64,000 nt of DNA, from contig CAMZBI010000001.1 of NCBI GenBank assembly GCA_947304585.1, forward strand, positions 25,501 to 89,500. Reading direction: 5' to 3'. The DNA is from an uncultured Clostridia bacterium (lineage in GTDB: Bacteria; Bacillota; Clostridia; UBA1212). Position numbers and translations under genes: made by a program. Each line of letters starts with the position of its first letter. The first letter of the stretch is position 1. Shown here in pieces: positions 32,057-54,422 of the stretch. Under the pieces are notes generated by a model that ran no database searches, was not told the origin of the DNA, and saw nothing but the letters and a program-made list of their open reading frames with translations.

Positions 32057-32415
32057 CAAGACAGAATCAGGGGGGGTAGCCGTCGAGGTTACCCCCCTGA
32101 TTCTGTCTTGAAACAATAGCGTTGGATTCGAACCCGAGGCCCCCGCAAAATCGTCAGATATATTAAATATGGGGTCCCCGTAAAATCGTTAGATTTTGCG
32201 GGGAAGAGGAGCCACAGCGACGCAAACGGAGACTTTCAAGAGAGAAAGAGAGGAAGTTTCTTGAAAGTCGGAGTCCACGTTGCTTGTGGCGACGTGGAGC
32301 CGCAGCGGAGCGATTGAAGTCTTCCAACAAAGGAGAAAAAAAGAAAACCGTATTAAAACAAGAAATAACGGTTTGTTGCCGACTGAATGATGAAACTTCT
32401 GCCGGCTTTTTTATG
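32057..32415 (+). repeat. structured modular repeat, copy A (abuts tRNA-Ala; ends in terminator)
   Basis: 17-bp hairpin immediately after the tRNA; GGGATTCGAACCC; helix CCCCGCAAAATC…GATTTTGCGGGG; GAGGAGCC; GACTTTCAAGA…TCTTGAAAGTC hairpin; terminator TGCCGACTGA…TCAGCCGGCTTTTTT. Confidence 0.7.
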
Positions 32416-32516
32416 CAAAAGCAAACTTTTTGTGGCAAGACAAGACGAAATGAGTTTGGTACAATTTGCAATGTAAAAAATAGCCGGCATTTTTAAGACG
32501 GGAGGTGATTCCGCAA

Positions 32517-33005
32517 ATGAACACAGCTGAAAAAATCATAGCGCTCAGAGCTGAGAGAGGCATTTCGCAGCAGGAACTTGCTGACGCAGTTTTTGTTTCA
32601 CGATCTCTCGTGTCAATGTGGGAGGCGGGAACACGCATTCCGGACAGTTTGAGCGTTGAGAAAATGGCTGCGTTGTTCAATGTAAGTGAGGAGGAGATTT
32701 TGAGCGATAGGAAATACGCTTTTGCGTCGTCGCTTGAGAGGAAACTCATTGGCGATGAGATTGCGGAGTTTACCGATGTTGACAGTTCACCGGGTGACAA
32801 GGAACAGGTAAAAAAGATAATGAACGGGTTCCTTCAAAGCATTGGTGGCGTTGACCGCGAGTTGTTTATGAGTCGATACTTCGAAATGAAAACATGCAAA
32901 GCTATCTCAGAGGAAACGCATATGAACGTTTCTACAGTCAGGTGGAGATTGTCCAAACTGAGAAAGAAGCTTGTGCTTTACGCGAAAAAAGGAGGTAAAA
33001 AATGA
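32517..33005 (+). CDS. XRE-HTH + sigma-70 region 4 fusion regulator (ECF-like)
   Basis: N-terminal Cro/C1 HTH (…RGISQQELADAVFVSRSLVSMWEAG…); C-terminal sigma region 4.2-like (…RELFMSRYFEMKTCKAISEETHMNVSTVRWRLSKLRKKL). GGAGGTG RBS. Confidence 0.65.
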   Translation: MNTAEKIIALRAERGISQQELADAVFVSRSLVSMWEAGTRIPDSLSVEKMAALFNVSEEEILSDRKYAFASSLERKLIGDEIAEFTDVDSSPGDKEQVKKIMNGFLQSIGGVDRELFMSRYFEMKTCKAISEETHMNVSTVRWRLSKLRKKLVLYAKKGGKK

Positions 33006-35233
33006 ACGAAAAAGACTTTAGGGAGGCTTTGTCTGAGATTGGAAATGACGTCGATGCGCCAATTTCGGGCGACGCAGTGATAAAAAATAAAAGTAAATTC
33101 AGAAACATTGTGATCATATCTGCCGCGGCGGCAATCGTGCTGACTTTTGCGGTCATTGCCGCTGTTATTATCGGTACGATCGGATCGAATAATCAAAACA
33201 TAAGCGGGGGAGGGCCTTCTGACAAGGTCCTTTTGGTGAATACTCCTTCGCCTGGAGGTATTGACAAGACCGAAGAACCCGGCAATAAAGCAAACCACGG
33301 GGCAACGTCCTCGCCGACCGCAGACCCGACTTCAGCTCCCACAAATCCGCCAATTTCTCAGCCCACTGAGACTCCTGATGGACCTCAAGGGACTCGGGAG
33401 CCTTATTACGTTGAGCCTTTCTGGCTTAAGGGGGAGTATTTGACGGTCAAAAAGCTTGGCTACGGCGGCTCCTCAAACATCGTTTCCTTTGGCGAGGGGA
33501 GTGTCAGCGCAAAGATTATCCCCACAACGGTATTCGGCGAGCATGAGAACTGCGGGAAGGTCTACTATAACACGGAGACCAATGAGATATATTGCGTTTA
33601 CCACGAGTTTCTGGAGGCCTCGGGCGTGACCGTGCCGGAGGGTTATTACATCTATTATGAGCAGGACACGGTGCGGGACGATCTGATGTGCATAAAGATT
33701 GTTGATCCGGGTGACCTTGGCACCACGGACCTGTGGCTTTTTGACATGGACGACCGCCTGGCAAAGAGAGTGGGGCTTCCGGAGGGATGCGGCAGCTACG
33801 AGGATATAAAGATCTATACGCCGGGCCTCTGCAACGGGAAGCTTGCCCTTTGCGTCAGCGATGACATTGGCGATTGCTACATAAGTATTTTTAACAGCGG
33901 AACAGGTGAATATCAGGACTTCGGCAAGGACGCAGGCCTTAAGTCTCTGACCTGCACCTTCCTGACGGAGACTGTGCTTGAGGTGTCGACTCCCGACGGG
34001 TATTACGCCTGGAACACCGCCAATTCTAGAATGTTCAAGCTTATCGGTGAGCACAATATCGTGTTTGACGGGCTCCTTTATTCCGTGAAGAACTGGTGGG
34101 GAGGCTACCATAAGGACGTGGAAGTGGCGGTATATAACGTCGAGACCGGGCTCCTGAGGAAGGGAAGCGGCGGCGTGTTGGCATTGGCGGTGATGGACGA
34201 CGGATCCTACGGCGTGCTTTCTATTGACGACGAGACCGGAAATGAGACGGTCATCATGGATCATTATACGGAGGGCGCTACTGCCTGGAGCAAAGATCAT
34301 GCCTACTTTTACGCATATTCCGCCAAGGACAACAGAGTCCTCTGCTATTCGGTCTCCGCTTGCCAATGGACTTTTGCAGACGTTGCTCCGATAACAAAAG
34401 ATCCGGTACTCGTCGAAGGGACTCTTTATGCGGTGTTCAACAGCTGCAGGCTTGCCGTCGACGACAACTGCAGGGAGGTTACGCTTTACCACACAAGAAA
34501 ACTGGAAGAAATACCTGACCTTCCGGATTTTGAGGAGCAGAGGGTTGACTCCCCTTACTGGGACGACTATCGCGACATTGCCGCAAATAACCGTTTCTCG
34601 GAAACTGACCGCTGGTATGTCACCTACAAAGAGGACAGGGTCAGCACGGGATGGATCGGACATGACGTCGCCAACATGGATGCCCTGCGGGATATCATAC
34701 TGCTTTGCCTGGAGACCCGGGGCGAAAGACTAAAATACGATTTGACTGAAAGCGATTACGACTTCTTTAAAATGAGTTTCAGCTACAGTACATTCAGCAT
34801 GGAGTTTTTTGAAAAAGACGGCAGATACTACTTGAATCTCAATGCCAACAGACAGCCTCCAATGGGTTTCGTGAGTGAATTCAGCGAGATACCGGAAGAG
34901 ACTTTCCTAAGGGTCATGGATATGCACAGCCCTTACGTTCAGTTCACATGGATATCGGTATCAGCCCGAATCGACGATGTTTCAGATCCAAATTGCAAGG
35001 TGGTACTTGATGAGAGCGAGAAGAGTTATTTGAAGGAGTTAATATCTTCCGGCAATTGGAGGCAAAACGATTTTCAGGGCGTTACGTATTTCAGGTACGC
35101 ATGCTTTTTCATTGACGGTGATGTGTGGTTCTGTTATGAGCCCAACATGAAAATCTTGCAGGATATCATGCACTCAACACATATAGAGCTAACAGACGAG
35201 GAGTGCGCCGCCATCGACATAATGCTGAATTGA
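33002..35233 (+). CDS. single-pass membrane anti-sigma-like protein with large extracytoplasmic domain
   Basis: 4-nt overlap with the regulator gene; short cytoplasmic N-terminus, one TM helix (IVIISAAAAIVLTFAVIAAVIIG), about 680-aa exterior domain. Confidence 0.5.
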   Translation: MNEKDFREALSEIGNDVDAPISGDAVIKNKSKFRNIVIISAAAAIVLTFAVIAAVIIGTIGSNNQNISGGGPSDKVLLVNTPSPGGIDKTEEPGNKANHGATSSPTADPTSAPTNPPISQPTETPDGPQGTREPYYVEPFWLKGEYLTVKKLGYGGSSNIVSFGEGSVSAKIIPTTVFGEHENCGKVYYNTETNEIYCVYHEFLEASGVTVPEGYYIYYEQDTVRDDLMCIKIVDPGDLGTTDLWLFDMDDRLAKRVGLPEGCGSYEDIKIYTPGLCNGKLALCVSDDIGDCYISIFNSGTGEYQDFGKDAGLKSLTCTFLTETVLEVSTPDGYYAWNTANSRMFKLIGEHNIVFDGLLYSVKNWWGGYHKDVEVAVYNVETGLLRKGSGGVLALAVMDDGSYGVLSIDDETGNETVIMDHYTEGATAWSKDHAYFYAYSAKDNRVLCYSVSACQWTFADVAPITKDPVLVEGTLYAVFNSCRLAVDDNCREVTLYHTRKLEEIPDLPDFEEQRVDSPYWDDYRDIAANNRFSETDRWYVTYKEDRVSTGWIGHDVANMDALRDIILLCLETRGERLKYDLTESDYDFFKMSFSYSTFSMEFFEKDGRYYLNLNANRQPPMGFVSEFSEIPEETFLRVMDMHSPYVQFTWISVSARIDDVSDPNCKVVLDESEKSYLKELISSGNWRQNDFQGVTYFRYACFFIDGDVWFCYEPNMKILQDIMHSTHIELTDEECAAIDIMLN

Positions 35234-35282
35234 CGTGCAGGGTTCAAAAGGACAGGTCGGCGGATGTGACGGATTGAACAGC

Positions 35283-35752
35283 GCATCTATTAAGGATGCA
35301 CTGTAGGGTAAAAACGGCCCACTGCATCTAAACCGACCACACACCACACAGACGCAGGGAGTAGCCTCCACGGCTACTCCCTGTGTCTGTAATAGAAACT
35401 ACCTGGTGGGATTCGAACCGGGGCCCCCGCAAAGATTTGGCGAAAAGGCTTTAATAACGCCAATTCTTTGTGGGGAAAAGGAGGCGCAGAGATGCAAACA
35501 AAGTGATTCAAGCGAATTTGTTCTTAAAATGCTTAGATCACGCAGTCGGCGTCTCTTGCGGCGACGCATTCGTACGCTATTGAGGCTTTTCAAACACGGG
35601 TTTCAAAACTGAAAAACAGTCTTTTTTACAGGTTTTTCTAAAGATTTTTTTGCCGAAATCAATGACCGGTTTCCGGGAAATCCGAGAACAGGATCAAGAA
35701 TAACAACGATATGTTCCCGACTGATTGATGAATATTCAGCCGGCTTTTTTTT
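35283..35752 (+). repeat. structured modular repeat, copy B
   Basis: TGCACTGTAGGG…CTGCATCTAAACCGACCACACACCACA; hairpin CAGACGCAGGGAGTAGCC/GGCTACTCCCTGTGTCTG; 18-bp helix CCCCGCAAAGATTTGGCG…CGCCAATTCTTTGTGGGG; AAAGGAGGCGCAGAGATGCAAAC; micro-ORF; terminator. Confidence 0.75.
35529..35612 (+). other. Arg-rich micro-ORF inside repeat copy B (MLRSRSRRLLRRRIRTLLRLFKHGFQN)
   Basis: ATG conserved in copies B, C and D2; coding status uncertain. Confidence 0.25.
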
Positions 35753-35821
35753 ATGCAAAAAAATGAATTGAAGGATTTCACATCGAAGGAACAATTGAAA
35801 ACAATTTCACACTTTGTACAT

Positions 35822-38230
35822 TCACTCAACCGCTTTCTGTTTACCGAAAAGGATAGAGCCAAGAGAAATATAGTCTCCGCGCACATGATCGATCCTGAAC
35901 CTCGCCGAGCGGTCATACTCATATACCATGTATGCGCCGCCGCAATAATCCTTTAAAATTTTCACAGGAGCAATCAGGTTTAAGCTTTTTGCGTCAAACA
36001 TCTCTACCGCGAGGCAGCAGTCCGGAGCATTGGCAGTAAAACGGAGAGCCACAGTATATTTCTGCTTCCGTTTCATCTTAATATCGGCGGTGAAAGACTG
36101 GGCGCAAACGTTATCATAATTTGTGCCGTAGGTTTCAGAGCCGCCGTTTTTGATGTAAATCCCGCGTGACAGGACGATATCTTCAACATATTCCGGAAGC
36201 TTTGATTTAACCATGGAAGAGCAGTCAAAGAAGCCGTCACTGCCGTATTTCTCATTGGCGTCGCGGTCGATGCCTTTGAAGGACGCAGGGTAGCAAAACA
36301 TAGGTGCTCTGTACGTTTTAACCCTTCCGGTATAAGCGGCGCTGAAAGTGTATTCCCCGGCGGAAATGTTTTCATAATAACAAAAATCATCGTCTTCCTT
36401 GTCAAAGGTTGCAGGGGAACCATTCAATTCTATATTTGAAATACGCATTCCTGCCTTGGGGATGGCGACGAGAGCTTCCGTACCTTCGGGTACCGAAACA
36501 TGATGAATTCCTTTTTTTATGTCAAACGAGGCTCTTATTGTGCCGTGAGGCGTAGGCATATCGCCAATGACATTTTTTAACTGAGTGCCCAAATGGGGGA
36601 TAACCGAAAACTTCTCGAAACCCGGTTTGACAGGTTTTATACCCAGTACTTCTGTGCTTAGAAAAGCAAGGACGCCTGCGCTCCAGGGATGAGCAAGACT
36701 TGTATATCCCGCCTGACTGTTCGGCAAGGGACCGTTCTTGTCGATTTCGTCTTTCCAGCCCGGACGAAAAACTTCAAAGAAGCAGGTCCCGCCGTATTCT
36801 ATCTGAGACCCCCAAAGATCAAGGATCGATGATAAAGCATCATCGTATTTACCTGTTTTGGCGAGAGCCTTAAGGATAAAGAACTCGTTGAAGGGAGAAT
36901 AGGATATGCGGTTGGTGCGGTCGTTAAAAAACTTTTTGAACAATTCTTCTCGGACCTTTCCGTCTGCGACACCGGCATTCACCGAGTCCGCAAAAGCATG
37001 GATGCCGCAGGACTTGTGCCATAAAGGATCGCTGCTTAAAAGAATACCCTTTTCCTCAGCATATCTCGTGCAACGCCGGGCGTAGTCCTGCCGCCCGAGC
37101 AAATTGAATATATCGGCATATTTTTTGAAACATTCAATGGAAAGAAACTTATATGAAAGACGGTTCTCGGGTATGTCCGGGTTTTCAAAACCCGCGCCAA
37201 GGCGTTCATCCCAGCCGAAAAATGAGAGCGGATAGTTTTTGTCAAAGATTTCATTGGCGTGTTCCAGTCTTTTAACAGCCTCGTCGATCAAACTCAATAC
37301 GCCTACATTATCTCCGGAAAAATCATAGTAGTCGGCAAGTGAAAGAAGCCAGTACAGTTCAAAGCTTTCTATACCGTTCGGGTGTGCGGAAGTATGTTTC
37401 AGGTTTTCAAGCACAAAGTCATAGTTGGCAAATGCTGCAAGAGAAGCTGCCTGAGCGGTGTAAGCGTCTCCTGTCCACGAATGGCGATCACCGCGGTCAA
37501 TAAGTATTGCCGACATGTAGTCTTTTTTCAAATTGACTCTAACGTCATAGGCAGCCGTGTACCAGATCCGGTTCAGCATCCGATTGTCGCACTCAAATGA
37601 GCCGTAATAGTTGACCGGTTTTACCTGGCAGACAAGTCTTACGCCGGTGATATGAAATTCCTTTTTAAGTCCTTGTATATGAATGAAACCGAAGCGCACG
37701 CCCTCATAAAGTTCCGGGTTAAGAACAAGCCTGTAAACGGTATCTGACACTTTTACGGGGTGCCTTGTCTTTTTTGATGACTGAACTCCCCGGTTAACGA
37801 TCTCGGGACTTGTGTACTCACTGACGCTTAACACAATGTTTTCCGGATCGCCAAGGTCAGGACTCATTATCTCAAGCCACGCCGCAAATTCCGAACCGAA
37901 GTCGATCATTACGGTACCATCGCCTTTTACGGTTAAATCTGTATCACCGGAAAGCAACGATTCAAGGTTCAGGAAACTGTTATTGTCCTCCGTTTCATAC
38001 TTTACCGGATAGGCGAAGAAAACCCGCAGCTCGTTTCCTGCGCTCACGTCGTCAAAGCGATAAGACAGAAGAGGATCAGGGGAAAAAGCAGCACCGGCGT
38101 TTTTTACCAATGTCCCGCCCGATATGTGTTTATAAGGTTCTTCGATATCAATATTGGCGATATTGATTCTGAATCTGTCGGAATGATCGTTGCACATGAA
38201 ACTCTGATTATCAATTTCCCGCAAAAGCAT
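35822..38230 (-). CDS. six-hairpin glycoside hydrolase, alpha-L-rhamnosidase-like (GH78-like)
   Basis: 802-aa ORF; central (alpha/alpha)6-type segment (…RHSWTGDAYTAQAASLAAFANYDF…). Exact start uncertain; family assignment by resemblance only. Confidence 0.5.
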   Translation of the reverse strand: MLLREIDNQSFMCNDHSDRFRINIANIDIEEPYKHISGGTLVKNAGAAFSPDPLLSYRFDDVSAGNELRVFFAYPVKYETEDNNSFLNLESLLSGDTDLTVKGDGTVMIDFGSEFAAWLEIMSPDLGDPENIVLSVSEYTSPEIVNRGVQSSKKTRHPVKVSDTVYRLVLNPELYEGVRFGFIHIQGLKKEFHITGVRLVCQVKPVNYYGSFECDNRMLNRIWYTAAYDVRVNLKKDYMSAILIDRGDRHSWTGDAYTAQAASLAAFANYDFVLENLKHTSAHPNGIESFELYWLLSLADYYDFSGDNVGVLSLIDEAVKRLEHANEIFDKNYPLSFFGWDERLGAGFENPDIPENRLSYKFLSIECFKKYADIFNLLGRQDYARRCTRYAEEKGILLSSDPLWHKSCGIHAFADSVNAGVADGKVREELFKKFFNDRTNRISYSPFNEFFILKALAKTGKYDDALSSILDLWGSQIEYGGTCFFEVFRPGWKDEIDKNGPLPNSQAGYTSLAHPWSAGVLAFLSTEVLGIKPVKPGFEKFSVIPHLGTQLKNVIGDMPTPHGTIRASFDIKKGIHHVSVPEGTEALVAIPKAGMRISNIELNGSPATFDKEDDDFCYYENISAGEYTFSAAYTGRVKTYRAPMFCYPASFKGIDRDANEKYGSDGFFDCSSMVKSKLPEYVEDIVLSRGIYIKNGGSETYGTNYDNVCAQSFTADIKMKRKQKYTVALRFTANAPDCCLAVEMFDAKSLNLIAPVKILKDYCGGAYMVYEYDRSARFRIDHVRGDYISLGSILFGKQKAVE

Positions 38231-38233
38231 TTC

Positions 38234-39307
38234 TCATCGGTCTATAACAGCTTTAATAACTCCGCCGCCGATAACCAAACCTCTTTCATCATAAAAAACG
38301 GCGGACTGCCCCTGTGCGGCAGCCCTCACGGGCTCGTCAAATTCAACTCTTACAGTGTCGTTTCTCGCTTTTTCGATAAATGCGGGCTGACCTTTGTGCC
38401 CGTATCTGATCTTGACAATGCATCTTACTTTTTTACTGTCCTCAAGGCTCTCAATACTCATAAAGTTCAGATTATTGCAAAGTATTTCCCGATTGTAGAG
38501 AGAGTCACTCTTTCCGATAACGACTTCGTTTTTTTCCGGGAGTATTTCCTTCACATAGCCCGGATATCCCAGGGAAATACCGAGCCCTTTTCTTTGGCCC
38601 ACAGTGTAATATATGATTCCCTTATGCCTTCCCAGCACATTTCCGTCAGGATCGACAAAATTGCCTTCTTTTGCACAGCCTGTTTTGGCTGCAATAAAGT
38701 CCCCGTAGCTCCCGCCGGTCACAAAGCAAATCTCCTGAGAATCCGGCTTTGAAGCAACGGCAATTTCCGCCTCCTTTGCGATACTTCTGACTTCGTCTTT
38801 ACTTAAACCGCCAAGAGGCATCAGCGTCGCTGCAAGCTGTTCCTGGGTCAGCCTGTAAAGCATGTAAGTCTGGTCCTTTTCGGTATGGCAGGCTGTCTTC
38901 ACCGTATACCTTCCGTTCTCAAGCTTTTCAACAGAAGCGTAGTGCCCGGTGGCAATATGATCTGCCCCGAAAACCTTGGCGTAAAACAGAAGCTTCTCCC
39001 ATTTAACATACCTATTGCAAAAAACACAGGGGTTGGGTGTACGGCCGGAAAGGTATTCGCCGACAAAAGGCTCTACTATATGTCTCCTAAAATCCGACGT
39101 ACAGTTTATGGGATAATAAGGTATGCCGATGCTTCTTGCGGCGTCTCTTGCATCGTCGATGTCGCAACAACGTCCTTCGTCACCGTCTTCAGTCTGCCAG
39201 ACCCTCAGGGTCACGCCAATGACATCATATCCCTCTTTTTTTAGGAGATATGCCGCTACGGCGCTGTCGACTCCTCCCGACATTCCCACAACAACCTTAT
39301 TACCCAT
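38234..39307 (-). CDS. mnmA: tRNA 2-thiouridine(34) synthase
   Basis: PP-loop VVVGMSGGVDSAVAA and conserved cysteines. Confidence 0.9.
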   Translation of the reverse strand: MGNKVVVGMSGGVDSAVAAYLLKKEGYDVIGVTLRVWQTEDGDEGRCCDIDDARDAARSIGIPYYPINCTSDFRRHIVEPFVGEYLSGRTPNPCVFCNRYVKWEKLLFYAKVFGADHIATGHYASVEKLENGRYTVKTACHTEKDQTYMLYRLTQEQLAATLMPLGGLSKDEVRSIAKEAEIAVASKPDSQEICFVTGGSYGDFIAAKTGCAKEGNFVDPDGNVLGRHKGIIYYTVGQRKGLGISLGYPGYVKEILPEKNEVVIGKSDSLYNREILCNNLNFMSIESLEDSKKVRCIVKIRYGHKGQPAFIEKARNDTVRVEFDEPVRAAAQGQSAVFYDERGLVIGGGVIKAVIDR

Positions 39308-39572
39308 AATAATTTACTGCCCGGAACACATTGCTATAAAAGAAATGCGATCATTCAACTTTTTTGAGTGGTTTAAAGTTTTTGTCACCATCCCTGAAAA
39401 AAGATTACGGTAGATTATAAACCTTTCTGCCTACTATGTCAATGGGTATATTCTGCTGTGCCGGGATCAATGTATCAACACGGATTGGTATGGAAAAGCA
39501 TTGGCGGCTTTGATATCTTCCTGTGACGCATATTTCACCAAGGTAACGCTGCAGTTAGGTCCGTAGGAGAGC

Positions 39573-40266
39573 GACTCTATTTAGTTTTCAAGTCATGTTA
39601 TCTTGTACACTGTATCTATTTAGTCTGTACAGTGCATCTTTTAGGGATGTACAGTAGGCCAAAAACGGCCCTCTGCATCTAAATCGACCACACACCACAA
39701 GGTGAACCCGGGTCCCCGAAAGTGCTCGCGCTTTTGGGGAGAGGAGCCGGGGCGGCGGGAATGGAGTCTTTCAAGTGAGGATCTATAAACTTCTTGAAAG
39801 ACGGAATCGTCGGCGTTCGCGGCGACGAAAATAGATGCACACGCAAAAATCGGCTATTTTTAGCCGATTGGAGCGGCTCGAAAGGCCAAAAATTTTAGTG
39901 CGAAATAAAAAGATGCAAAAGCCTATTCCCGAGGGGAATCCATAGGGGCCCCCGAAACTCGCTTTCACACATTGGCCCGTCACTAGTCCGCTTTCGCGGA
40001 AATCGTTCCGGCTCCAATGTGTGGCGCGAGATGGGCCTATTTATGCGCTTTTGGGGAGAAGGAGCCGCAGAGACGCAAACGAAGTGGTCCAAGCGAATAC
40101 AATCTTATAATGCTTGAAACACGCAGTCGGCGTCTCTTGCGGCGACGCATTCGTACGCTATTAAAGCCTTACAACAAGAGTCTTTAAGGGAAAAAGAGAG
40201 CTATATTAAAACAAGAAATAACGGTTTGTTGACGACTGAGTGATGAAACTTCAGCCGGCTTTTTAG
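39573..40266 (+). repeat. structured modular repeat, copy D (composite, two tandem module sets)
   Basis: ACTGTATCTATTTAG and TGTACAGT(×2) block; CCCCGAAAGTGC…GCGCTTTTGGGG; GTCTTTCAAG…CTTGAAAGAC; AATCGGCTA-TTTTT-TAGCCGATT; second helix CCCCCGAAA…CTTTTGGGG enclosing CACACATTGG…CCAATGTGTG; micro-ORF; terminator. Confidence 0.75.
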
Positions 40267-40409
40267 ATCCGACAAACATCCAATCAATGTTTCTTTGTTT
40301 TGTAACGGTTGACTTTCTGCCATTTAAAAATCACGCAATCTATGCTATACTGTCATTACTAAATTTGAAATGCCAAACTGGCAGAGCAAGTTAAGATTGG
40401 AGCCTTGCT

Positions 40410-41357
40410 ATGAGCAATGATAAAACGAAACTCATTCTCGCGAATACCAATGAGCAGGGCACAGATGCCCTCAATATTCAAAGCTTAATTTACGTTTTTC
40501 GTGATAAACAGGTCATGCTTGACAGTGACTTGGCTTATTTGTATAAAGTTGAGACCGGATATCTCAACAGAGCAGTAAAACGCAACATCAGCCGATTTCC
40601 AGAGGATTTTTGTTTTCAACTTACAATAGAAGAATATGCAATCTTGAAATGCCAAATTGGCATAGCAAGTTCGGAGTCAGCTAATGGATATGGCGGCAGG
40701 AGGACTCGGCCATATGTGTTTACAGAGCAAGGCATTTCGATGCTTGCAAGTGTTTTGCATAGTGATGTCGCCGTTAGTGTAAGCATCCGGATTATGAGAG
40801 CTTTTGTGGAGCTGCGACATTTCATTTCCGGCAATGCGCTGCTGTTTGAGCGAATAAGTTCCGTTGAACTTCGTCAACTGGAATACCAAAAAGAGGTTGA
40901 TGAAAAGTTTGAGAAGGTTTTTGAATATATTTCGGATCATCAAGAGGCTTCGCAGAAGGTCTTTTTCAATGGGCAGATTTATGATGCTTTCAGCCTGATT
41001 TCCAGTTTGATTAAGAAGGCTTCAACAGATATTATCCTGATTGATGGATACGTAGACACGGGAACCCTTGATTTGCTCTCAAAGAAACGGTCAGGCGTTG
41101 GCGTCTCTGTTTATACCTCGCAACACGGATGCCGACTCACTAATGCTGAAGTTACTGCATTTAATGCCCAGTATCCCGCTCTCTCTGTGTCATATACCAG
41201 CGTTTTTCATGATCGCTTTTTAATTTTGGATCACCGGAAAGGATATCACATTGGAGCCTCAATTAAAGATGCCGGGGGAAAGTGTTTTGCTATTTCCAAG
41301 TTGGAGGATTCACAGATTATACAAGACATCATCAATAGGCTATCGCATTCAAACTGA
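40410..41357 (+). CDS. ORF6N (KilA-N-related) domain protein with C-terminal extension
   Basis: …VMLDSDLAYLYKVETGYLNRAVKRNISRFPEDFCFQLT… matches the ORF6N domain; low-GC gene. Confidence 0.65.
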   Translation: MSNDKTKLILANTNEQGTDALNIQSLIYVFRDKQVMLDSDLAYLYKVETGYLNRAVKRNISRFPEDFCFQLTIEEYAILKCQIGIASSESANGYGGRRTRPYVFTEQGISMLASVLHSDVAVSVSIRIMRAFVELRHFISGNALLFERISSVELRQLEYQKEVDEKFEKVFEYISDHQEASQKVFFNGQIYDAFSLISSLIKKASTDIILIDGYVDTGTLDLLSKKRSGVGVSVYTSQHGCRLTNAEVTAFNAQYPALSVSYTSVFHDRFLILDHRKGYHIGASIKDAGGKCFAISKLEDSQIIQDIINRLSHSN

Positions 41358-41379
41358 CTGCACGAAAGGCTGAAATCTC

Positions 41380-42726
41380 ATGGGACAATCATTTGAACGA
41401 ATACTTGCTCTAAACAAGGAAACAACAGGCTTGTCGTTGGTTCCCGGAATGCGTAAAGCTGCTGCAGAAATCGGATATTCAGAAAGCACGGAGGGTATTG
41501 GCATTTCCGTTCGTATAAGGCGTCATGAAGACAGCGAGTGGTACGAAATCGAGTCGCCTCTGCTTGGATCCACCGCAGAAACAGCAGAGCCTTTTTTGAG
41601 GGCAATTTCCCGCGAAGTGCATACACCGGTGCTTTTCCTTTGTTGTGTCGACAGTGATTTTGTTTATTGCCGGTTGATAGACTCTACTACCGAAATCGAT
41701 ACAGGCGCCTGCTTAGGAGAACCGTATGTTGACGTCGGTGAACCGGATTACAATGCGTGGGCCGGAGCATGTAAAAAGAAATGGAAGTGCACTGCCGAAC
41801 AGTTTCGTGAAGTGTTCGAGGGCGATTATGTCTTCGCAGAAGAGGGGCTGGAACCGCTTGCTGCGCTGATGCATTTCTCACCGGTTGTTGTAAATGTGTC
41901 TGAAGATGAGCCTGCCGACAGGATAATATGGTTTTCACCTTCTGGAGATGGGACCAACGCCAGGTCTCCGCAAACGTTGCTCGAAAAAGCTGCGGATTTC
42001 ATGGAAACAGAGTATGCGGACAAATTGGTCGAAAAAGGCTTTCAACGGTTTAAAAACTCTCCGCTTCGGTGGCATAAGCTCGTTGGCGACGAGGGCAACG
42101 AGGTGCTGCAGAGCATTGTTATCACTTCGCATTACGATTGGTATGAGATCTTTTACGGAGCACAATCGCTGTATTGTCCGGTTGTCTTCTCCGACAAGTA
42201 TTATCCGCATCACGACAATGATCTTTACTGGCTGGAAGCTCGTTTTGAGTATGTATGTAATGTCGACAAAGGTCTGTTCTACATTGAAGAGGAGAATCCT
42301 GAACTTGGCAAATGCGAAAGAATGTTGCCTTTTGACGACCCGCAGCAGTTCCGTCCCATACTGGAAAGATTGATCTTTCCTGCGCTCGACCGCATCGTTG
42401 ATCTTACGACATGCCACGATGCATATATGCAAACGCGCCTGGTCAAACTCTATAAGGACAATCCAAAGATTAATATTGATCATTCAAGGCTTTGGCTCGA
42501 GGCATTTCTCTCCGGCGATGAAGCATTGACCAAAAAACATTTTGCGCTTGTTAAACAACTGTATGAAAATCAAAAACAAATAGCACGAAATCTAAACATA
42601 GAATGTGAAGAGCCGCTGGTCGAAGCCTTTGGCAAAGGCGATATGGTCCTGTTCAGAGAATTATTGGACAAGACATATGCCACCAATATGAAAAATCTCA
42701 GGAACGCAGGGGTCGTTCAACGGTGA
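41380..42726 (+). CDS. hypothetical protein (448 aa, no recognised domain)
   Basis: Intact ORF 22 nt downstream of the ORF6N gene; low GC. Confidence 0.4.
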   Translation: MGQSFERILALNKETTGLSLVPGMRKAAAEIGYSESTEGIGISVRIRRHEDSEWYEIESPLLGSTAETAEPFLRAISREVHTPVLFLCCVDSDFVYCRLIDSTTEIDTGACLGEPYVDVGEPDYNAWAGACKKKWKCTAEQFREVFEGDYVFAEEGLEPLAALMHFSPVVVNVSEDEPADRIIWFSPSGDGTNARSPQTLLEKAADFMETEYADKLVEKGFQRFKNSPLRWHKLVGDEGNEVLQSIVITSHYDWYEIFYGAQSLYCPVVFSDKYYPHHDNDLYWLEARFEYVCNVDKGLFYIEEENPELGKCERMLPFDDPQQFRPILERLIFPALDRIVDLTTCHDAYMQTRLVKLYKDNPKINIDHSRLWLEAFLSGDEALTKKHFALVKQLYENQKQIARNLNIECEEPLVEAFGKGDMVLFRELLDKTYATNMKNLRNAGVVQR

Positions 42727-42755
42727 ACCTGGACTGAGCTTTTATAATCCAATCT

Positions 42756-43254
42756 CATATGCATCTATTTGGTCTGAACACTGTATCTATTTAGGATGTA
42801 CAGTAGGGTAAAAACGGGCCTCTGCATCTAAATCGACCACACACCACACACAGAATCAAGGGGTAGCCTTCGCGGTTACCCCTTGATTCTGTGTTGAAAC
42901 AATAGCGTGGGATTCGAACCCGGGGCCCCCGAAAGATTTGGCGAAAAGGCTTTAATAACGCCAATTCTTTGTGGGGATAAGGAGCCGCAGAGACGCAAAC
43001 GAAGTGATTCAAGCGAATTTATTCATAAAATGCTTGGATCACGAAGTCGGCGGCTCTTGCGGCGACGCATTCGTACGCTATTGAGGCTTTTCAAACACGG
43101 GTTTTAAGACTGAAAAACAGTCTTTTTTACAGGTTTTTCAAAAGATTTTTTACCGAAATCAACGACCGGTTTCCGGGAAATCCGAGACCGGGATCAAGAC
43201 AAATAACAACGATCTGTTGCCGACTGAGTGATGAAAATTCAGCCGGCTTTTTGG
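42756..43254 (+). repeat. structured modular repeat, copy C
   Basis: Near-identical architecture to copy B, but the 5' hairpin is ACAGAATCAAGGGGTAGCC-TTCGC-GGTTACCCCTTGATTCTGT. Confidence 0.75.
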
Positions 43255-49629: not shown

Positions 49630-49740
49630 GCACCTGTTTGGTCTGCATACAGTATCTTTTTATATGCACACGCAGAAATCGGCTATTTTTAGCCGATTGG
49701 AGCGGCTTGGAAAGCGATTTTTTGAGCAATGAAATAAAAA
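49630..49740 (+). repeat. partial copy (E) of the structured repeat
   Basis: TTTGGTCTGCATACAGTATC…GCACACGCAGAAATCGGCTATTTTTAGCCGATTGGAGCGGCTTGGAAAG matches the internal segment of copy D. Confidence 0.55.
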
Positions 49741-49819
49741 GAGACAAATGCCAATTATGGCGTTTTTGTGCTGTCGATTGCGGATCGGTAGGCATTGGCG
49801 CCAATGCTGCCGGATCGCA

Positions 49820-51238
49820 TCACCTTTTTCCCGCATCCTTGCCGATCCTGAAGATAAGATTGCCGTTTTCGTCATAGCCGGAATAAACGGTCTCCACGTT
49901 GAGTCCGATCGAATTAACAAGCGGGCCCTTATCATATACACTTTTCACGTATTCCGAAACTATGAGACAGTACTCACCGTAATCAATAACTGCAGTCGGC
50001 GTTCCTGCGTCAAAGTCCTGAAAACGACTGTCATTTGAGAAAATGAATGAACCGTTTATAATTCCCACTAACGATTCGTTGCGAAACATATTATCTGACA
50101 CTGTCGATCCGAGAACGTTAAGGTCGTAATCGATCTCCACGTTCATGTCGACAGCGAGAACGGTTTTACCGGAATCAACAAAATCACCGTCGGTCGACTG
50201 CGTTCTGACGAAAAGCATAAACCCGCCCTCAGAGGGTTTTGCATAGTTTAAATGATCAAAATCACTGCCTTTGAGGAAACCTCTTTTGATCTCTTGTCCG
50301 TCATCGGCGAGAATGATCATTATAACGTCGGTCTCTCCGTAGTCACGCCACTTCTGCTGATCACGATGCGTTCCGAAAAAGAAATATCTGCCTTCCCTTT
50401 CGATGCAGTTGTAAAACGAACTGCCCTCAAGGCCGTCAAATGCTTTATCAAACTGGAGATTTCCGAATCTGTCGCATTTTATGACTCTCGAGGCGTAACC
50501 TTCATCGCTCGCCCGTTTTTGATCCAAATAGTCATAAGTATAATCTTGAAAGCCGAGGACGAAAAGAAAGCCTCCGTCGGAAGTTGCGGTCAGTGTCGTG
50601 ACGATGTATGCGTCATCGCATTTCACGGTATACTCGGCAAGAACGTCGCCAAAGATATCGAGCATCGTTACCTTTTGAACGACCGTTCTCGTTTCCGGAT
50701 CTTTTTCAACGGTCTCACTTTTCAGCAGTCTGTCGGAAAAAGCTTTGGCGTCTTTAAAGGCGTTCTCATCGATGAGGCTCGTAAGCTCCGGCGGTATCGC
50801 GCCGCTGTCTGTCTCTCGAGGCGGGAAAACGTACCTGTTCCAGATTTCCTCAAGCATCTCGGGTGTCATTTCGGCGTTCCCGATCTCCTCGCAGGGAACA
50901 CTGTTTTTGATTACTTCCGCTGTTTTCTCATCCGTGAACCTTTTTTCTATGATATCGAAGAATACGTTTTTCATTTCTGTACGGCTGAGACCTTCCGAAT
51001 TCAGTCCGTTGTTTTCAAAGAAGGCTGAAGCAGCGTCAAAGGCCTTGGCTTCCGAATAGGCAAATACGCCTGCCACGGCAGCAAGTGCCGCGATTAGAAG
51101 AACGCATACGGACACGGGTATCCATCGTAAATGGTTCCGGCTGTTTTTTTTACTCGATCCTGAGTACGATCTCAAAGCACGGTCAGCCATTTCTTCGTCT
51201 ATACCGGCGAACGCGTCGAAAAGCTGGTTATCTTTCAT
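49820..51238 (-). CDS. single-pass membrane anti-sigma-like protein (paralog of 33002..35233)
   Basis: N-terminus MKDNQLFDAFAGIDEEM resembles MNEKDFREALSEIGNDV of the first partner; one TM helix; 4-nt overlap with the upstream regulator gene. Confidence 0.5.
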   Translation of the reverse strand: MKDNQLFDAFAGIDEEMADRALRSYSGSSKKNSRNHLRWIPVSVCVLLIAALAAVAGVFAYSEAKAFDAASAFFENNGLNSEGLSRTEMKNVFFDIIEKRFTDEKTAEVIKNSVPCEEIGNAEMTPEMLEEIWNRYVFPPRETDSGAIPPELTSLIDENAFKDAKAFSDRLLKSETVEKDPETRTVVQKVTMLDIFGDVLAEYTVKCDDAYIVTTLTATSDGGFLFVLGFQDYTYDYLDQKRASDEGYASRVIKCDRFGNLQFDKAFDGLEGSSFYNCIEREGRYFFFGTHRDQQKWRDYGETDVIMIILADDGQEIKRGFLKGSDFDHLNYAKPSEGGFMLFVRTQSTDGDFVDSGKTVLAVDMNVEIDYDLNVLGSTVSDNMFRNESLVGIINGSFIFSNDSRFQDFDAGTPTAVIDYGEYCLIVSEYVKSVYDKGPLVNSIGLNVETVYSGYDENGNLIFRIGKDAGKR

Positions 51239-51717
51239 TTTTTTGACTCCTTTATGTACCTTGCAAGTTTGGCTCTTGTCTTTGAGAGAATGCTCCTGAC
51301 GTGATTCTCGCGAATGCCGTACGCTTCAGCGATCTCGGCAGTGTTCTTCAGGTGATAGTAACGATTAATAAAAATATCAGCGTCCTTTTCCGGGATGCTC
51401 CTTAGAAAACGGTCCAAAACAACTGCCAGATCTGCGTCGCTGATTTCGATTCCGGCAAGGTTGCCGTCAAAGAGTTCTTTGAAAACAAGGTCGGTTGTAT
51501 CAACTATTTCGTCAACTTTGGCGTTAAATACTTCTGCTATTTTTTCGATCATACGATAATTCGGACGCCTCGTTCCGTTTTCCCATTTTGAGACCAGATC
51601 TCTTGAGACAAACAAACTGTCGGCAAGCACCTGCTGAGACATACCGTTTTTATTGCGCAATTCACTTATTTTTTTGCCGATATTCAGCGAAAACACCTCC
51701 TTTGACCATGATCGCAT
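51235..51717 (-). CDS. XRE-HTH + sigma-70 region 4 fusion regulator (paralog of 32517..33005)
   Basis: Same two-domain architecture (…GMSQQVLADSLFVSRDLVSKWENG… and …DIFINRYYHLKNTAEIAEAYGIRENHVRSILSKTRAKL). Confidence 0.65.
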   Translation of the reverse strand: MRSWSKEVFSLNIGKKISELRNKNGMSQQVLADSLFVSRDLVSKWENGTRRPNYRMIEKIAEVFNAKVDEIVDTTDLVFKELFDGNLAGIEISDADLAVVLDRFLRSIPEKDADIFINRYYHLKNTAEIAEAYGIRENHVRSILSKTRAKLARYIKESKK

Positions 51718-51900: not shown

Positions 51901-52085
51901 GAGTTATGTACAGTACCCGCGAAAACCCTTAAAAACCCGGGAAAATACCGCCAAGAAATCTAAAACGACCACACCCCCCAAGGATAAAGACTCCTTCGCG
52001 GGGGCTTTTTCGTGGCGTTGTACAAGCGCTAAGAGGCCCCCGAAAGCGCTTGCACTTTTGGGAGGAGAAAAGCCGCAACGACGTT
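51901..52085 (+). repeat. partial copy (F) of the structured repeat, upstream of the AAA ATPase gene
   Basis: ATGTACAGTA…TCTAAAACGACCACAC; GACTCC-TTCGC-GGGGGTC hairpin; GAGGCCCCCGAAAGCGCTTGCACTTTTGGGAGGAG. Confidence 0.65.
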
Positions 52086-52201: not shown

Positions 52202-53530
52202 GTGTTTAGAAGAAAAATCTATGATAAGCTTTTGGAGTGGAAAAAGGAATCACAGGGCAGAACTGCGTTGATGATTGAAGGGGCTGGGCGAGTTGGAAAA
52301 TCGACAGTAGCGGAAGAATTTGCGAAAAATGAATATGACAGTTTTATTCTTATAGACTTTTCAATTGCGCCGCAGGCTGTCAAGAACCTTTTCGATGATA
52401 TGTCGAATCTTGATTTCTTCTTTCTTCAACTTCAACTGCTATACCATGTCGACCTCGAAGAACACAGATCTATTATTATTTTTGACGAAGTGCAGTTCTT
52501 TCCAAAAGCCAGGCAGGCGATAAAGCATCTGGTCAAGGACCGAAGATACGATTATCTTGAGACGGGCTCTCTTATCTCGATAAAGAAAAACGTAAAAGAC
52601 ATTCTGATTCCAAGTGAGGAACAGAAAATCAAAATGTATCCGATGGACTATGAGGAATTCCTTTGGGCCATTGGCGATAATACGACGATTCCTCTGATCC
52701 GCCAATGCTTTGAATCGCGAAAGGCTGTGGGCGAACAGCTGAACCGGAGACTTATGCGCGATTTCAGGTTATATATGCTTGTCGGCGGTATGCCTCAGGC
52801 TGTAAATGAATACCTGGAAACGAATAATTTACGGAAAGTCGATCTTGTCAAGCGAACGATTTTGTCGCTTTACGAAGAGGATTTCAGGAAAATCGACCCA
52901 TCCGGAAGAGCTTCTATGATGTTCGATGCCATACCTGCGCAACTTTCGAAGAACGCATCAAGATATATGATAACAAGTGCTCTGCAAAAGAGAAAGACCG
53001 AAAAAACATCCGAAATGATAGCCGATATGGCAGATTCAGGGACCGTTTTGATTGCTTGTCATGCTGACGACCCGAACGTCGGCCTTTCGGCCACCGGAGA
53101 CTTTTCCTCTTTTAAGATGTTTGTATGTGATACCGGACTTTTCGTAACACTGATGTTCAAGGACCGTGATTTTACTGAAAATATCATATATGAAAAACTG
53201 CTTAACGACAAGATTGGAGCAAATCTTGGATATTTGTACGAGAATGCCGTGGCACAAACGCTTGCATCTAACGGAGACAGGTTGTTTTACTACACATTTT
53301 TCAACGAGTCATCCCGGCACAACTACGAGATCGATTTTCTCTTGGCACGCGGAAACAAGATTTGCCCTGTTGAAGTTAAATCGTCAGGATACAAGGCCCA
53401 TGTTTCTTTAGATAAGTTTTTTGAGAAGTACTCGTCGCGTATTCTTCAAAAATATCTTGTTTATACTAAAGATCTCGCCAAAGATACCGATACGCTTTGC
53501 GTGCCTGTTTATATGGCCCAATTCATGTAA
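52202..53530 (+). CDS. AAA+ ATPase (AAA_14 + DUF4143 family)
   Basis: Walker A GAGRVGKST; the widespread orphan ATPase family; GTG start after AGGAG; low GC. Confidence 0.75.
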   Translation: MFRRKIYDKLLEWKKESQGRTALMIEGAGRVGKSTVAEEFAKNEYDSFILIDFSIAPQAVKNLFDDMSNLDFFFLQLQLLYHVDLEEHRSIIIFDEVQFFPKARQAIKHLVKDRRYDYLETGSLISIKKNVKDILIPSEEQKIKMYPMDYEEFLWAIGDNTTIPLIRQCFESRKAVGEQLNRRLMRDFRLYMLVGGMPQAVNEYLETNNLRKVDLVKRTILSLYEEDFRKIDPSGRASMMFDAIPAQLSKNASRYMITSALQKRKTEKTSEMIADMADSGTVLIACHADDPNVGLSATGDFSSFKMFVCDTGLFVTLMFKDRDFTENIIYEKLLNDKIGANLGYLYENAVAQTLASNGDRLFYYTFFNESSRHNYEIDFLLARGNKICPVEVKSSGYKAHVSLDKFFEKYSSRILQKYLVYTKDLAKDTDTLCVPVYMAQFM

Positions 53531-53775
53531 GATTATTGCCAAGAAAACTAAAACGTCTACACACTCCACGAAAAAAGACTCCTTCGCGGGGTCTTTTTTC
53601 GTGGTGGAGCAAGTAAAGAAAGAGGCCCCCGAAAGTGCTTGCACTTTTGGGAGGAGGAGCCAAAACGGCGGAAATGGGGAGTCCTTCAAGGAAACGAAAA
53701 AACGAGAGTGGAATAATGACAAATAATAACGGTTTGTTGCCGACTGAGTGGTGAAGCTTCAGCAGGCATTTTTTA
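53531..53775 (+). repeat. copy G of the structured repeat, immediately downstream of the AAA ATPase gene
   Basis: CTAAAACGTCTACACAC; perfect 14-bp stem CCACGAAAAAAGAC/GTCTTTTTTCGTGG around the TTCGC loop; GAGGCCCCCGAAAGTGCTTGCACTTTTGGGAGGAGGAGCC; terminator. Confidence 0.7.
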
Positions 53776-54384: not shown

Positions 54385-54422
54385 AGCAAGCGTATTACGA
54401 GGCTCAAGGACCTGTTAGAGTT

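What the first reader, a model, noticed from the sequence alone, without database searches (positions are those of the whole stretch)
40410..42726. ORF6N-domain protein plus 448-aa orphan as a repeat-bounded, low-GC two-gene cassette
The pair sits precisely between repeat copies D and C. The genes are separated by 22 nt and co-oriented.

The first gene has a KilA-N-related ORF6N DNA-binding domain (typical of phage and conflict contexts) plus a 170-aa C-terminal region. The second has no recognisable domain and no TM segments.

The pair could be a toxin/immunity, anti-phage or phage-derived regulatory module delivered as a cassette.
Basis: inference. Interest (0 to 1): 0.5.

Follow-up and report, generated by a model that had tools for sequence, protein, structure and literature searches.

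The report
Solo anti-phage gene plus passenger orphan
The first gene belongs to PDC-S05, a widespread family of single-gene candidate anti-phage proteins (a DNA-binding domain fused to a nuclease-like domain), while the second is an unrelated orphan that sits beside it only in this species, so this is an ordinary defence gene with a passenger and not a new two-gene system.

Summary
The anatomy is real. There are two co-oriented ORFs (315 aa and 448 aa) 22 nt apart, lying between two copies of a direct repeat. The low-GC claim is weak: 44.0% against 48.5% for the window, about the 10th percentile.

Gene 1 is a full-length member of PADLOC candidate family PDC-S05 (E 8e-124). It has an ORF6N DNA-binding domain, a helical linker, and a PLD-fold domain with an invariant H-x-R-x4-D motif. 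The same C-terminal region occurs in RhuM proteins. One RhuM-type PDC-S05 member was reported to block T7 and T5.

Gene 2 belongs to a small family restricted to rumen Clostridia, with no known domain or fold.

The two genes are not a conserved pair. Of 22 loci with a gene 2 homologue and 96 with a gene 1 homologue, only one held both, and it is a near-identical strain.

The flanking repeats belong to a hairpin-rich, mosaic intergenic repeat family. Synteny between strains breaks at these repeats. The same 98%-identical block lies next to different genes in another strain and is deleted in a third. It therefore behaves like a cassette, most likely through repeat recombination.

Unexpected extra: ORF6N genes carry a covarying 25-nt palindrome inside the coding sequence, and PDC-S05-type genes repeat it in their 5'UTR. 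This is probably an autoregulatory operator.

The parts
39611..40264 (+). Repeat copy 'D', a mosaic, hairpin-rich intergenic repeat. Module 1 is 39611-39699. Extra modules are 39711-39775 and 39832-39927. The module 3 long hairpin is 40049-40198. The terminal hairpin plus T-run is 40205-40264.
   Evidence: Identity to same-species contigs L041-L043 ends exactly at 39699.
40323..40351 (+). Promoter-like site with an extended -10 (TGcTATACT, 40343-40351) in the unique DNA just after the repeat.
   Evidence: One search gave a consensus match only. The sequence was read.
40365..40392 (+). 5'UTR copy (26 of 28 nt) of the palindromic segment of the gene 1 coding sequence, 18-45 nt before the ATG. 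Putative operator.
   Evidence: An equivalent upstream copy is present in 9 of 11 full-length ORF6N-PLD genes and in 0 of 31 ORF6N genes with other C-termini.
40410..41357 (+). Gene 1 (315 aa), a PDC-S05-type protein. The ORF6N domain covers residues 26-115 (nt 40485-40754). A helical linker covers about residues 119-185. The PLD-fold domain covers about residues 186-315.
   Evidence: Pfam ORF6N 1.7e-31. PADLOC PDLC04869, E 8.4e-124, over profile positions 8-301 of 306. Foldseek matches to PLD, NucT, Zucchini and PLD3 at E 2e-5 to 1e-3. pN/pS is 0.11 against L009.
40644..40671 (+). Intragenic palindrome (TTGAAATGCCAAATTGGCATAGCAAGTT) that encodes LKCQIGIASS within the ORF6N domain.
   Evidence: Across 21 distinct ORF6N genes, 7 of 12 palindrome pairs show changes on both sides, and 0 of 500 shuffles reach the observed score.
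41208..41231 (+). Codons for H267-D-R269-F-L-I-L-D274, an HxK(x)4D-like motif of the PLD fold with Arg in place of Lys.
   Evidence: H267, D268 and R269 are invariant and D274 at least 90% conserved in 21 homologues. The motif is shared with a RhuM-family protein.
41358..41379 (+). 22-nt spacer with a weak ribosome-binding site (GAAAGG, 41364-41369). No terminator-like site lies in it.
41380..42726 (+). Gene 2 (448 aa), a cytoplasmic orphan from a family restricted to rumen Clostridia. It has two alpha/beta domains followed by a helical C-terminal domain.
42760..43252 (+). Repeat copy 'C'. Module 1 is 42760-42848. A 21-bp hairpin lies at 42849-42893. An inverted copy of the tRNA T-arm lies at 42907-42921. 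The module 3 hairpin is 42969-43120. The terminal hairpin plus T-run is 43193-43252.
   Evidence: The fold z-score is -8.6. Identity to L009 ends at 42848.

Best explanation
The locus is a chance operon of two functionally independent genes, carried on one of many repeat-bounded blocks that are reshuffled between strains of a rumen Clostridia species.

Gene 1 is a stand-alone PDC-S05-type defence protein. Its ORF6N domain binds DNA. A helical linker and a single PLD-fold domain (H-x-R-x4-D) probably make it a dimer, and the PLD domain is the likely nuclease effector. The gene has its own extended -10 promoter. It is probably autorepressed through a 25-bp palindrome that sits just downstream of the -10 and again inside its own ORF6N coding sequence.

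Gene 2 is a lineage-restricted cytoplasmic protein of unknown role. In this species it lost its own upstream region and is read through from gene 1.

The block moved, and in one strain was lost, through recombination in or next to the flanking mosaic hairpin repeats. No dedicated cassette machinery is needed.

Shown: family membership, the fold, lack of co-occurrence, alternative flanks, the deletion, and palindrome covariation. Inferred: nuclease activity, autoregulation, co-transcription, and the recombination mechanism.
For: Gene 1 identity:
- Full-length PDC-S05 match, E 8e-124.
- More than 8000 homologues, still 72-73% identical to gene 1 in Massilimicrobiota, a distantly related genus.
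- The C-terminal domain has a PLD fold, with H267, D268, R269 and the Y279-H-I-G-A-S-x-K-D block invariant and D274 at least 90% conserved.
- The same C-terminal region occurs in a RhuM-family protein (38% identity, E 1e-35). A RhuM-type PDC-S05 was reported to be active against T7, T5 and T4.
- Homologues are solitary or embedded in type I restriction-modification operons.

Independence of the two genes:
- Only L009 holds both, out of 22 loci with a gene 2 homologue and 96 with a gene 1 homologue.
- Gene 2 homologues at about 45% identity lie in uvrA-DUF218-X-FakA_M synteny.
- DNA homology to the 67-70% homologues starts 18 nt before the gene 2 ATG.

Block behaviour:
- L009 matches 40044-42848 at 98.4%, then continues into a NUDIX gene.
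- L022 is L009 minus positions 565-2860, with a 9-nt overlap at the junction.
- L041-L043 match 35802-39699 at 98.2% and diverge at the end of module 1.

Operator:
- Palindrome covariation, with almost no G-U pairs.
- An upstream copy in 9 of 11 full-length genes against 0 of 31 others.
Against: - No experiment links this exact ORF6N-type subfamily to defence. The tested PDC-S05 protein was RhuM-type.
- The HKD lysine is arginine, and PLD-like domains in TrmB, MITD1 and FAM83 are non-catalytic. These were also Foldseek hits.
- This copy has Gly at position 290, where at least 90% of homologues have Lys.
- The gene 1-gene 2 link is kept in two strains and the genes are tightly spaced, so a lineage-specific functional link cannot be excluded.
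- The alternative flanks come from metagenome contigs, which can be chimeric at repeats. Only the NUDIX context has independent support, from a unique deletion junction.
- No empty site joining mnmA directly to the GNAT gene was found.
Confidence: 0.6

Rival explanations
1. Genes 1 and 2 form a true two-gene defence system, a species-specific elaboration of PDC-S05. Gene 2 would act as sensor, regulator or second effector for the ORF6N-PLD protein.
For: The spacer is 22 nt, there is no terminator between the genes, and they are co-oriented. The pair is kept intact at 98% identity in a second strain. In L022 it was lost together, apart from the first 63 codons of gene 1. A remote gene 2 relative (P0179) lies in an accessory context: HTH plus ImmA-like peptidase, then small ORFs, then a WYL regulator.
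Against: The genes do not co-occur outside the species. Gene 1 homologues are solitary in all 23 loci that have at least 1 kb of downstream DNA. Gene 2 homologues lie in housekeeping synteny. Gene 2 has no PADLOC hit. Gene 2 shows relaxed pN/pS of 0.52 against 0.11 for gene 1, although this rests on few substitutions.
Confidence: 0.12
2. Gene 1 is a DNA-binding regulator or anti-repressor-like protein whose PLD-like domain is non-catalytic, serving for dimerisation or ligand binding as in TrmB and TrmBL2. It would act by binding the palindrome and not by cutting DNA.
For: TrmBL2, TrmB, MITD1 and FAM83 are among the best Foldseek hits. The motif has K replaced by R. PHROG anti-repressor families match the N-terminal domain. 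The palindromic sites look like operators.
Against: The putative active-site region (H267-D-R269, D274, Y279-H-I-G-A-S-x-K-D) is far more conserved than in known pseudo-PLD domains: D274 is conserved in at least 90% of homologues and the other residues are invariant. The family is embedded in type I restriction-modification operons. It is a PADLOC defence candidate with one member reported active.
Confidence: 0.15
3. The pair is a toxin-immunity or toxin-antitoxin pair, with the PLD nuclease of gene 1 as toxin and gene 2 as its immunity protein.
Confidence: 0.04
4. The flanking repeats are sites of a dedicated site-specific cassette system, analogous to an integron, that captures and moves gene blocks such as this pair.
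For: All copies point the same way over 22 kb, starting right after a tRNA-Ala gene. Structure is conserved with compensatory changes. Block boundaries are sharp and coincide with module ends in three comparisons. The blocks often carry accessory-type genes such as GNAT, NUDIX, an HTH pair and the defence gene.
Against: No recombinase was seen among the ORFs examined. Some blocks are on the opposite strand and include the housekeeping gene mnmA. Each block has its own promoter. The repeats are 250-650 nt mosaics with terminators, unlike attC sites. Homologous recombination between dispersed repeats explains the same data. Metagenome contigs may be chimeric at repeats.
Confidence: 0.09

Closest known systems
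PDC-S05 (PADLOC single-gene phage defence candidate; ORF6N-type and RhuM-type proteins)
   Same: Gene 1 matches profile PDLC04869 over its full length (E 8e-124). It has the same architecture and the same conserved C-terminal motif. The family is abundant in rumen genomes, with 3275 loci.
   Different: The member shown to protect E. coli carried a Virulence_RhuM domain, not ORF6N. This copy has K290G. It is fused transcriptionally to an unrelated downstream gene.
RhuM family (Pfam Virulence_RhuM) proteins of type I restriction-modification loci
   Same: They share the linker plus PLD-like C-terminal region, with 38% identity over residues 119-306, including HDRF-I-D and YHIGAS-KD. They are enriched next to type I restriction-modification genes. 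The Treponema gene 1 homologue lies in the order hsdM-wHTH-ORF6N-hsdS.
   Different: The N-terminal domain differs. Gene 1 has no Virulence_RhuM Pfam hit at E up to 1. The RhuM gene examined has no upstream palindrome copy.
Single-HKD PLD-family nucleases (Nuc/NucT, BfiI, Zucchini/PLD6)
   Same: Same fold (Foldseek E 1e-4 to 1e-3, aligned over 130-150 residues). A single motif copy implies a dimeric active site. BfiI likewise couples a PLD nuclease to a separate DNA-binding domain (from general knowledge).
   Different: The motif is H-x-R-x4-D, not H-x-K-x4-D, and GAS-x-K stands in place of GS-x-N. Activity is untested.
Phage ORF6N/KilA-N-type anti-repressors (for example PHROG 4792)
   Same: The N-terminal domain matches (E 6e-23). 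They carry the same intragenic palindrome at the same codons.
   Different: The phage versions have other C-termini and lack the upstream palindrome copy (0 of 31). No phage genes lie around gene 1.
Mosaic palindromic intergenic repeats (E. coli BIME/REP, pneumococcal BOX)
   Same: The flanking repeats are intergenic, modular and built of hairpins with compensatory changes. They are present in many copies, and their module content varies between copies.
   Different: They have no sequence relation to these families and no Rfam hit. They are much longer (250-650 nt), all copies in the window are co-oriented, and each ends in a terminator-like hairpin. They carry an inverted tRNA T-arm fragment.

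Membership tests
PDC-S05 (PADLOC) | Full-length match to a family profile HMM | tested here: met
   PDLC04869 at E 8.4e-124, covering residues 14-312 against profile positions 8-301 of 306. Three further PDC-S05 profiles match at E 1e-31 to 1e-50.
PDC-S05 (PADLOC) | Single-gene unit with no obligatory partner | tested here: met
   Homologues are solitary or sit inside restriction-modification operons. None of the 23 full-length homologue loci with at least 1 kb of downstream DNA has a gene 2 relative.
PDC-S05 (PADLOC) | Location in a defence island or mobile-element context | tested here: inconclusive
   No known defence system is adjacent here. The neighbours are mnmA and a GNAT gene. An AAA_14/DUF4143 ATPase lies 10 kb away. 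The block itself is strain-variable.
PDC-S05 (PADLOC) | Protection against phage | not testable with these tools
   The only evidence is a published assay on a RhuM-type member.
PLD (HKD) superfamily nucleases | PLD fold | tested here: met
   In the AF2 model, residues 190-315 have pLDDT of about 85-90. Foldseek against the PDB matched PLD 7e0m (E 1.9e-5), NucT 6ehi, Zucchini and PLD3 with probability 1.0.
PLD (HKD) superfamily nucleases | HxK(x)4D(x)6GSxN catalytic motif | tested here: not met
   The motif found is H267-D-R269-(x)4-D274-(x)7-G282-A-S-x-K286. The His and Asp are conserved, but Lys is Arg and Asn is Lys, in every homologue aligned. Gene 1 may work like a PLD nuclease, but strict motif membership fails.
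Two-gene toxin-antitoxin, toxin-immunity or paired defence system | Conserved co-occurrence of the two genes across lineages | tested here: not met
   Only L009, the same species at 98% nucleotide identity, has both genes, among 22 loci with a gene 2 homologue and 96 with a gene 1 homologue.
Integron-type gene cassette | attC-type recombination site, a nearby intI integrase, and promoterless co-oriented cassettes | tested here: not met
   The block has its own promoter-like site. The neighbouring block is on the opposite strand and carries mnmA. The repeats are 250-650-nt mosaics with terminators. No recombinase was seen in the ORFs scanned. A formal attC model was not run.
Mosaic palindromic intergenic repeats (BIME/BOX-like class) | Intergenic, multi-copy, modular elements made of hairpins whose structure is conserved | tested here: met
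   At least 5 copies in the window plus fragments. Module content varies between copies. In the module 3 hairpin, 10 of 27 pairs show compensatory changes. The fold z-score is -8.6. This is membership of a class, not of a named family: there was no Rfam match.

The most novel reading that the evidence does not exclude
The hairpin-rich mosaic repeats are the recombination sites of an undescribed cassette-shuffling mechanism in rumen Clostridia. It would relocate promoter-bearing gene blocks, including this defence gene with its passenger, between chromosomal sites. The crossover would be fixed at the end of module 1, which takes the position of a tRNA 3' end. In addition, the ORF6N-PLD protein would recognise the palindrome written into ORF6N coding sequences, using it both as its own operator and as a mark of incoming phage ORF6N genes.
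Probability: 0.1. Interest if true: 0.7.

Novelty: new member of a known kind. Interest (0 to 1): 0.38.

Why it matters
For genome annotation, the pair should not be recorded as a new two-gene system. Gene 1 is one more copy of PDC-S05, one of the commonest candidate defence genes in rumen genomes. Gene 2 is an unrelated orphan.

Two by-products are more useful than the finding itself.

First, ORF6N genes contain a covarying 25-nt palindrome in their coding sequence, and ORF6N-PLD defence genes repeat it in the 5'UTR. To my knowledge, and in the 11 ORF6N papers in the searchable library, no DNA target is defined for this domain family. The palindrome offers a concrete, testable candidate binding site and a likely autoregulatory circuit for PDC-S05.

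Second, a family of structured mosaic repeats marks strain-to-strain synteny breakpoints in a rumen Clostridia species. This bears on how accessory genes are reshuffled there, and on the reliability of metagenome assemblies of such genomes.

Tried and rejected
- Rfam, at gathering thresholds and at E up to 1 over 31.5-54.5 kb, gave no family for the repeats.
- Exact-sequence look-ups of both proteins found nothing on record.
- Gene 2 was searched against Pfam, NCBIfam, PADLOC and PHROGs, alone and as 35 family members. There was nothing.
- The afdb50 structure library was not available.
- Gene 2 has no match in the phage or plasmid collections.
- Remote gene 2 relatives number 339 representatives, most sharing only the first 170 residues or so. 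None has a Pfam domain.
- I looked for a conserved upstream partner of gene 2. The upstream genes in L001 and L006 are unrelated to each other and to gene 1.
- L025 looked at first like an empty site. It is a different locus that shares only repeat modules and 82 nt of upstream DNA.
- I looked for an empty mnmA-GNAT junction through mnmA homologues. The four same-species contigs carry other genes beyond the repeat.
- A repeat-core pattern has no match in viral contigs. Five of the nine metagenome pattern hits were chance matches.
- The integron and toxin-antitoxin readings were rejected for the reasons given in the membership table.
- The N-terminal half of the gene 1 AF2 model is of low confidence because the alignment was shallow. 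Only the C-terminal domain was interpreted.
Full report
OBSERVATION. They are on the + strand and 22 nt apart. The spacer holds a weak GAAAGG ribosome-binding site, and no terminator-like site separates the genes.

They lie between two direct-repeat copies, 39611-40264 and 42760-43252. These share three modules at 84-88% identity.

The unique DNA between the repeats (40265-42759) is 44.0% GC. The window mean is 48.5%, with an SD of 4.0% for windows of that size, so this is about the 10th percentile. Gene 1 is 41.8% and gene 2 is 46.5%. 'Low GC' is therefore true only weakly, and only for gene 1.

GENE 1. Pfam finds ORF6N at residues 26-115 (E 1.7e-31). PADLOC finds a full-length match to PDC-S05 (PDLC04869, E 8.4e-124). 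PHROG anti-repressor families match the N-terminal domain only.

The family is very large: more than 8000 hits at E below 1e-10. It is also highly conserved, at 72-73% identity in Massilimicrobiota.

An AF2 model is confident only for residues 190-315. That domain is a PLD fold by Foldseek: PLD 7e0m at E 1.9e-5, plus NucT, Zucchini and PLD3/4. The non-catalytic PLD-like domains of TrmB/TrmBL2, MITD1 and FAM83 also match.

The alignment shows H267, D268 and R269 invariant, D274 in at least 90% of homologues, and an invariant Y279-H-I-G-A-S-x-K-D block. This is the HxK(x)4D spacing with Arg in place of Lys. This copy has Gly at position 290, where at least 90% of homologues have Lys.

The linker plus PLD-like region is shared with a RhuM-family protein (38% identity, E 1e-35). 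This links gene 1 to the one PDC-S05 member tested. That member is RhuM-type and was reported to lower plating of T7 and T5 about 1000-fold (bioRxiv 10.1101/2024.09.26.614923). PDC-S05 is among the commonest candidate systems in rumen genomes, with 3275 loci (PMC13356809).

Homologues are solitary genes in varied contexts. In Treponema saccharophilum the homologue sits inside a type I restriction-modification operon, in the order hsdM-wHTH-ORF6N-hsdS. Full-length homologues also occur on IMG/VR contigs.

GENE 2. It has no hit in any of the four profile libraries and no hydrophobic segment. It has 47 homologues, all about 440-450 aa and all from rumen Clostridia MAGs.

A profile search of 1.8 billion representatives found 339 relatives. 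Most share only the first 170 residues or so, and none has a Pfam domain.

DO THE TWO GENES BELONG TOGETHER? No.
- Among 22 loci with a gene 2 homologue and 96 with a gene 1 homologue, only L009 has both. L009 is from the same species, at 98% nucleotide identity.
- Gene 2 homologues at about 45% identity lie in conserved uvrA-DUF218-X-FakA_M synteny.
- The 47% homologues lie beside an HTH_3 gene and a PhzF gene.
- The 67% homologue lies beside a CBM9 gene and a DUF6577-AbiEii pair.
- DNA homology to the 67-70% homologues begins 18 nt before the gene 2 ATG and ends at its stop. Gene 2 alone is therefore the conserved unit.
- Against L009, gene 1 has pN/pS of 0.11 and gene 2 has 0.52, although these rest on few substitutions.

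THE REPEATS AND THE 'CASSETTE'. The flanking repeats belong to a family with at least five copies in the window, plus fragments: 32061-32411, 35260-35749, 39611-40264, 42760-43252, 53538-53773, 49661-49756 and 51950-52067. All are on the + strand.

They are mosaics of modules. They are strongly structured: copy C folds with z = -8.6. In the module 3 hairpin, 10 of 27 pairs show compensatory changes across 10 copies. Each copy ends in a hairpin plus T-run. They have no Rfam match.

Copies A, B and C contain an inverted copy of the tRNA T-arm core. Copy A starts 4 nt after a tRNA-Ala gene.

Strain comparisons show that synteny breaks at these repeats.
- L009 matches 40044-42848 at 98.4%. Right after module 1 it continues into another module and a NUDIX gene, not the GNAT gene.
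- L022 is L009 with positions 565-2860 deleted. That is most of gene 1, all of gene 2 and module 1. The junction has a 9-nt overlap, and a tRNA-Ala lies upstream. This unique junction independently confirms the NUDIX context.
- Same-species contigs L041-L043 match 35802-39699 at 98.2% (the rhamnosidase-mnmA block). They diverge exactly at the end of module 1 into unrelated genes.
- L028 and L029 show the same pattern for the 32.2-35.5 kb block.

The pair is therefore one of several repeat-bounded blocks with different neighbours in different strains. This supports cassette-like behaviour.

It does not point to a dedicated system. Blocks lie on both strands, and one holds the housekeeping gene mnmA. 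Each block has its own promoter, and no recombinase was seen. Homologous recombination between dispersed repeats is the simplest account.

Two caveats apply. Metagenome contigs can be chimeric at repeats. No mnmA-GNAT empty site was found.

AN UNEXPECTED FEATURE OF GENE 1. A 28-nt stretch of the 5'UTR (40365-40392) begins 14 nt after the extended -10 (TGcTATACT). It is a 26-of-28 copy of 40644-40671 inside the coding sequence, at codons 79-88 (LKCQIGIASS).

The coding segment is a 12-1-12 palindrome. Across 21 distinct ORF6N genes it keeps 8-12 of 12 pairs. Seven of the 12 pairs show changes on both sides, and 0 of 500 shuffles reach the observed score. Slid controls pair at only 21-43%, against 89% for the true register.

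The compensatory changes alter pairs of amino acids: S/V to C/G to S/A, and K/I to R/T. Selection therefore acts on the nucleotides. G-U pairs are almost absent (2 of 252 cells), which favours DNA-level symmetry such as a protein-binding site over an RNA hairpin.

An upstream copy lies 16-102 nt before the ATG in 9 of 11 full-length ORF6N-PLD genes, each reached by 0 of 200 shuffles. It is also present in L032, L038 and the frameshifted L056. It is present in 0 of 31 ORF6N genes with other C-termini. The upstream copy changes along with the coding copy. In L036, for example, GCCA/TGGC becomes CACA/TGTG in both copies.

It is absent where the gene sits inside an operon (Treponema) and in the Legionella homologues.

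My reading, which is inference, is that this is an operator for the dimeric ORF6N-PLD protein and gives autorepression. Only 11 papers in the searchable library mention ORF6N, and none appears to describe this.

MECHANISM AND VERDICT. Most likely (0.6): gene 1 is an autoregulated, stand-alone PDC-S05 defence gene. ORF6N provides DNA binding, and the dimeric PLD-type domain is the probable nuclease. Gene 2 is a passenger read through from gene 1. The block is mobile through repeat recombination.

The rivals are:
- a species-specific two-gene system (0.12);
- a non-catalytic regulator (0.15);
- a toxin-immunity pair (0.04);
- a dedicated cassette system (0.09).

The finding is a new member of a known kind. 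The pair as such is ordinary. The palindrome/operator and the mosaic repeats are the parts worth following up.

Noticed in passing
window 40365-40392 and 40644-40671; also L031, L032, L036, L038, L047-L057: ORF6N genes carry a 25-nt palindrome in the coding sequence, at the codons for L-K-S/C-Q-I-V/G-I-S. Its compensatory changes alter pairs of amino acids. ORF6N-PLD (PDC-S05-type) genes have a second, co-varying copy in the 5'UTR or promoter region. ORF6N genes with other C-termini on viral contigs do not.
   Followed up: partly
window 32061-32411, 35260-35749, 39611-40264, 42760-43252, 49661-49756, 51950-52067, 53538-53773: A family of co-oriented, mosaic, hairpin-rich intergenic repeats with no Rfam match. 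The hairpins show covariation. Synteny with related strains (L009, L025, L028, L029, L041-L043) breaks at module boundaries.
   Followed up: partly
window 32124-32134, 35409-35419, 42907-42921 (compare the tRNA-Ala T-arm at 32034-48): Repeat copies A, B and C contain an inverted copy of the tRNA T-arm core (GGTTCGAATCC). In copy C, 15 nt are identical to the tRNA-Ala of the window. Module 1 occupies the position that tRNA-Ala occupies ahead of copy A.
   Followed up: no
L022 1156-1164 (junction); L009 565-2860: A strain in metagenome Ga0247611 carries a deletion derivative. It has tRNA-Ala, repeat modules and the first 63 codons of gene 1, joined by a 9-nt overlap to the region upstream of a NUDIX gene.
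   Followed up: yes
window 32505-35233 (+) and 49820-51717 (-); L041 3440-5473: Paralogous two-gene units. Each has a 160-172-aa protein with HTH_3 and sigma-70 region 4 domains, followed by a 470-740-aa protein with no known domain. Each unit lies next to repeat copies.
   Followed up: no
window 52202-53530 and 54010-56567: An AAA_14/DUF4143 ATPase gene and a Tubulin_2-like gene split into two ORFs (124 and 714 aa). Both lie in the lowest-GC part of the window (39-43% GC, 52-57 kb).
   Followed up: no
window 62452-62538, 63204-63290, 63306-63392: A second, unrelated family of 87-nt direct repeats with 3 copies, two of them almost tandem, in a low-GC stretch.
   Followed up: no
window 25146-25273: A purine riboswitch aptamer scoring just above the Rfam gathering score (39.3 against 37 bits).
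   Followed up: no
L050-L053 (IMG/VR contigs), about 1457-2800: A tandem arrangement: a short ORF6N-only gene directly followed by a full-length ORF6N-PLD gene. Each gene has its own version of the palindrome.
   Followed up: no
L045 4906-10561 (Ruminococcus, SRR094437): A remote relative of gene 2 (P0179) lies after an HTH_3 gene and a Peptidase_M78 (ImmA-like) gene. It lies before a run of small unknown ORFs and a WYL regulator. This is an accessory or mobile-element type of context, unlike the uvrA context of the closer homologues.
   Followed up: no
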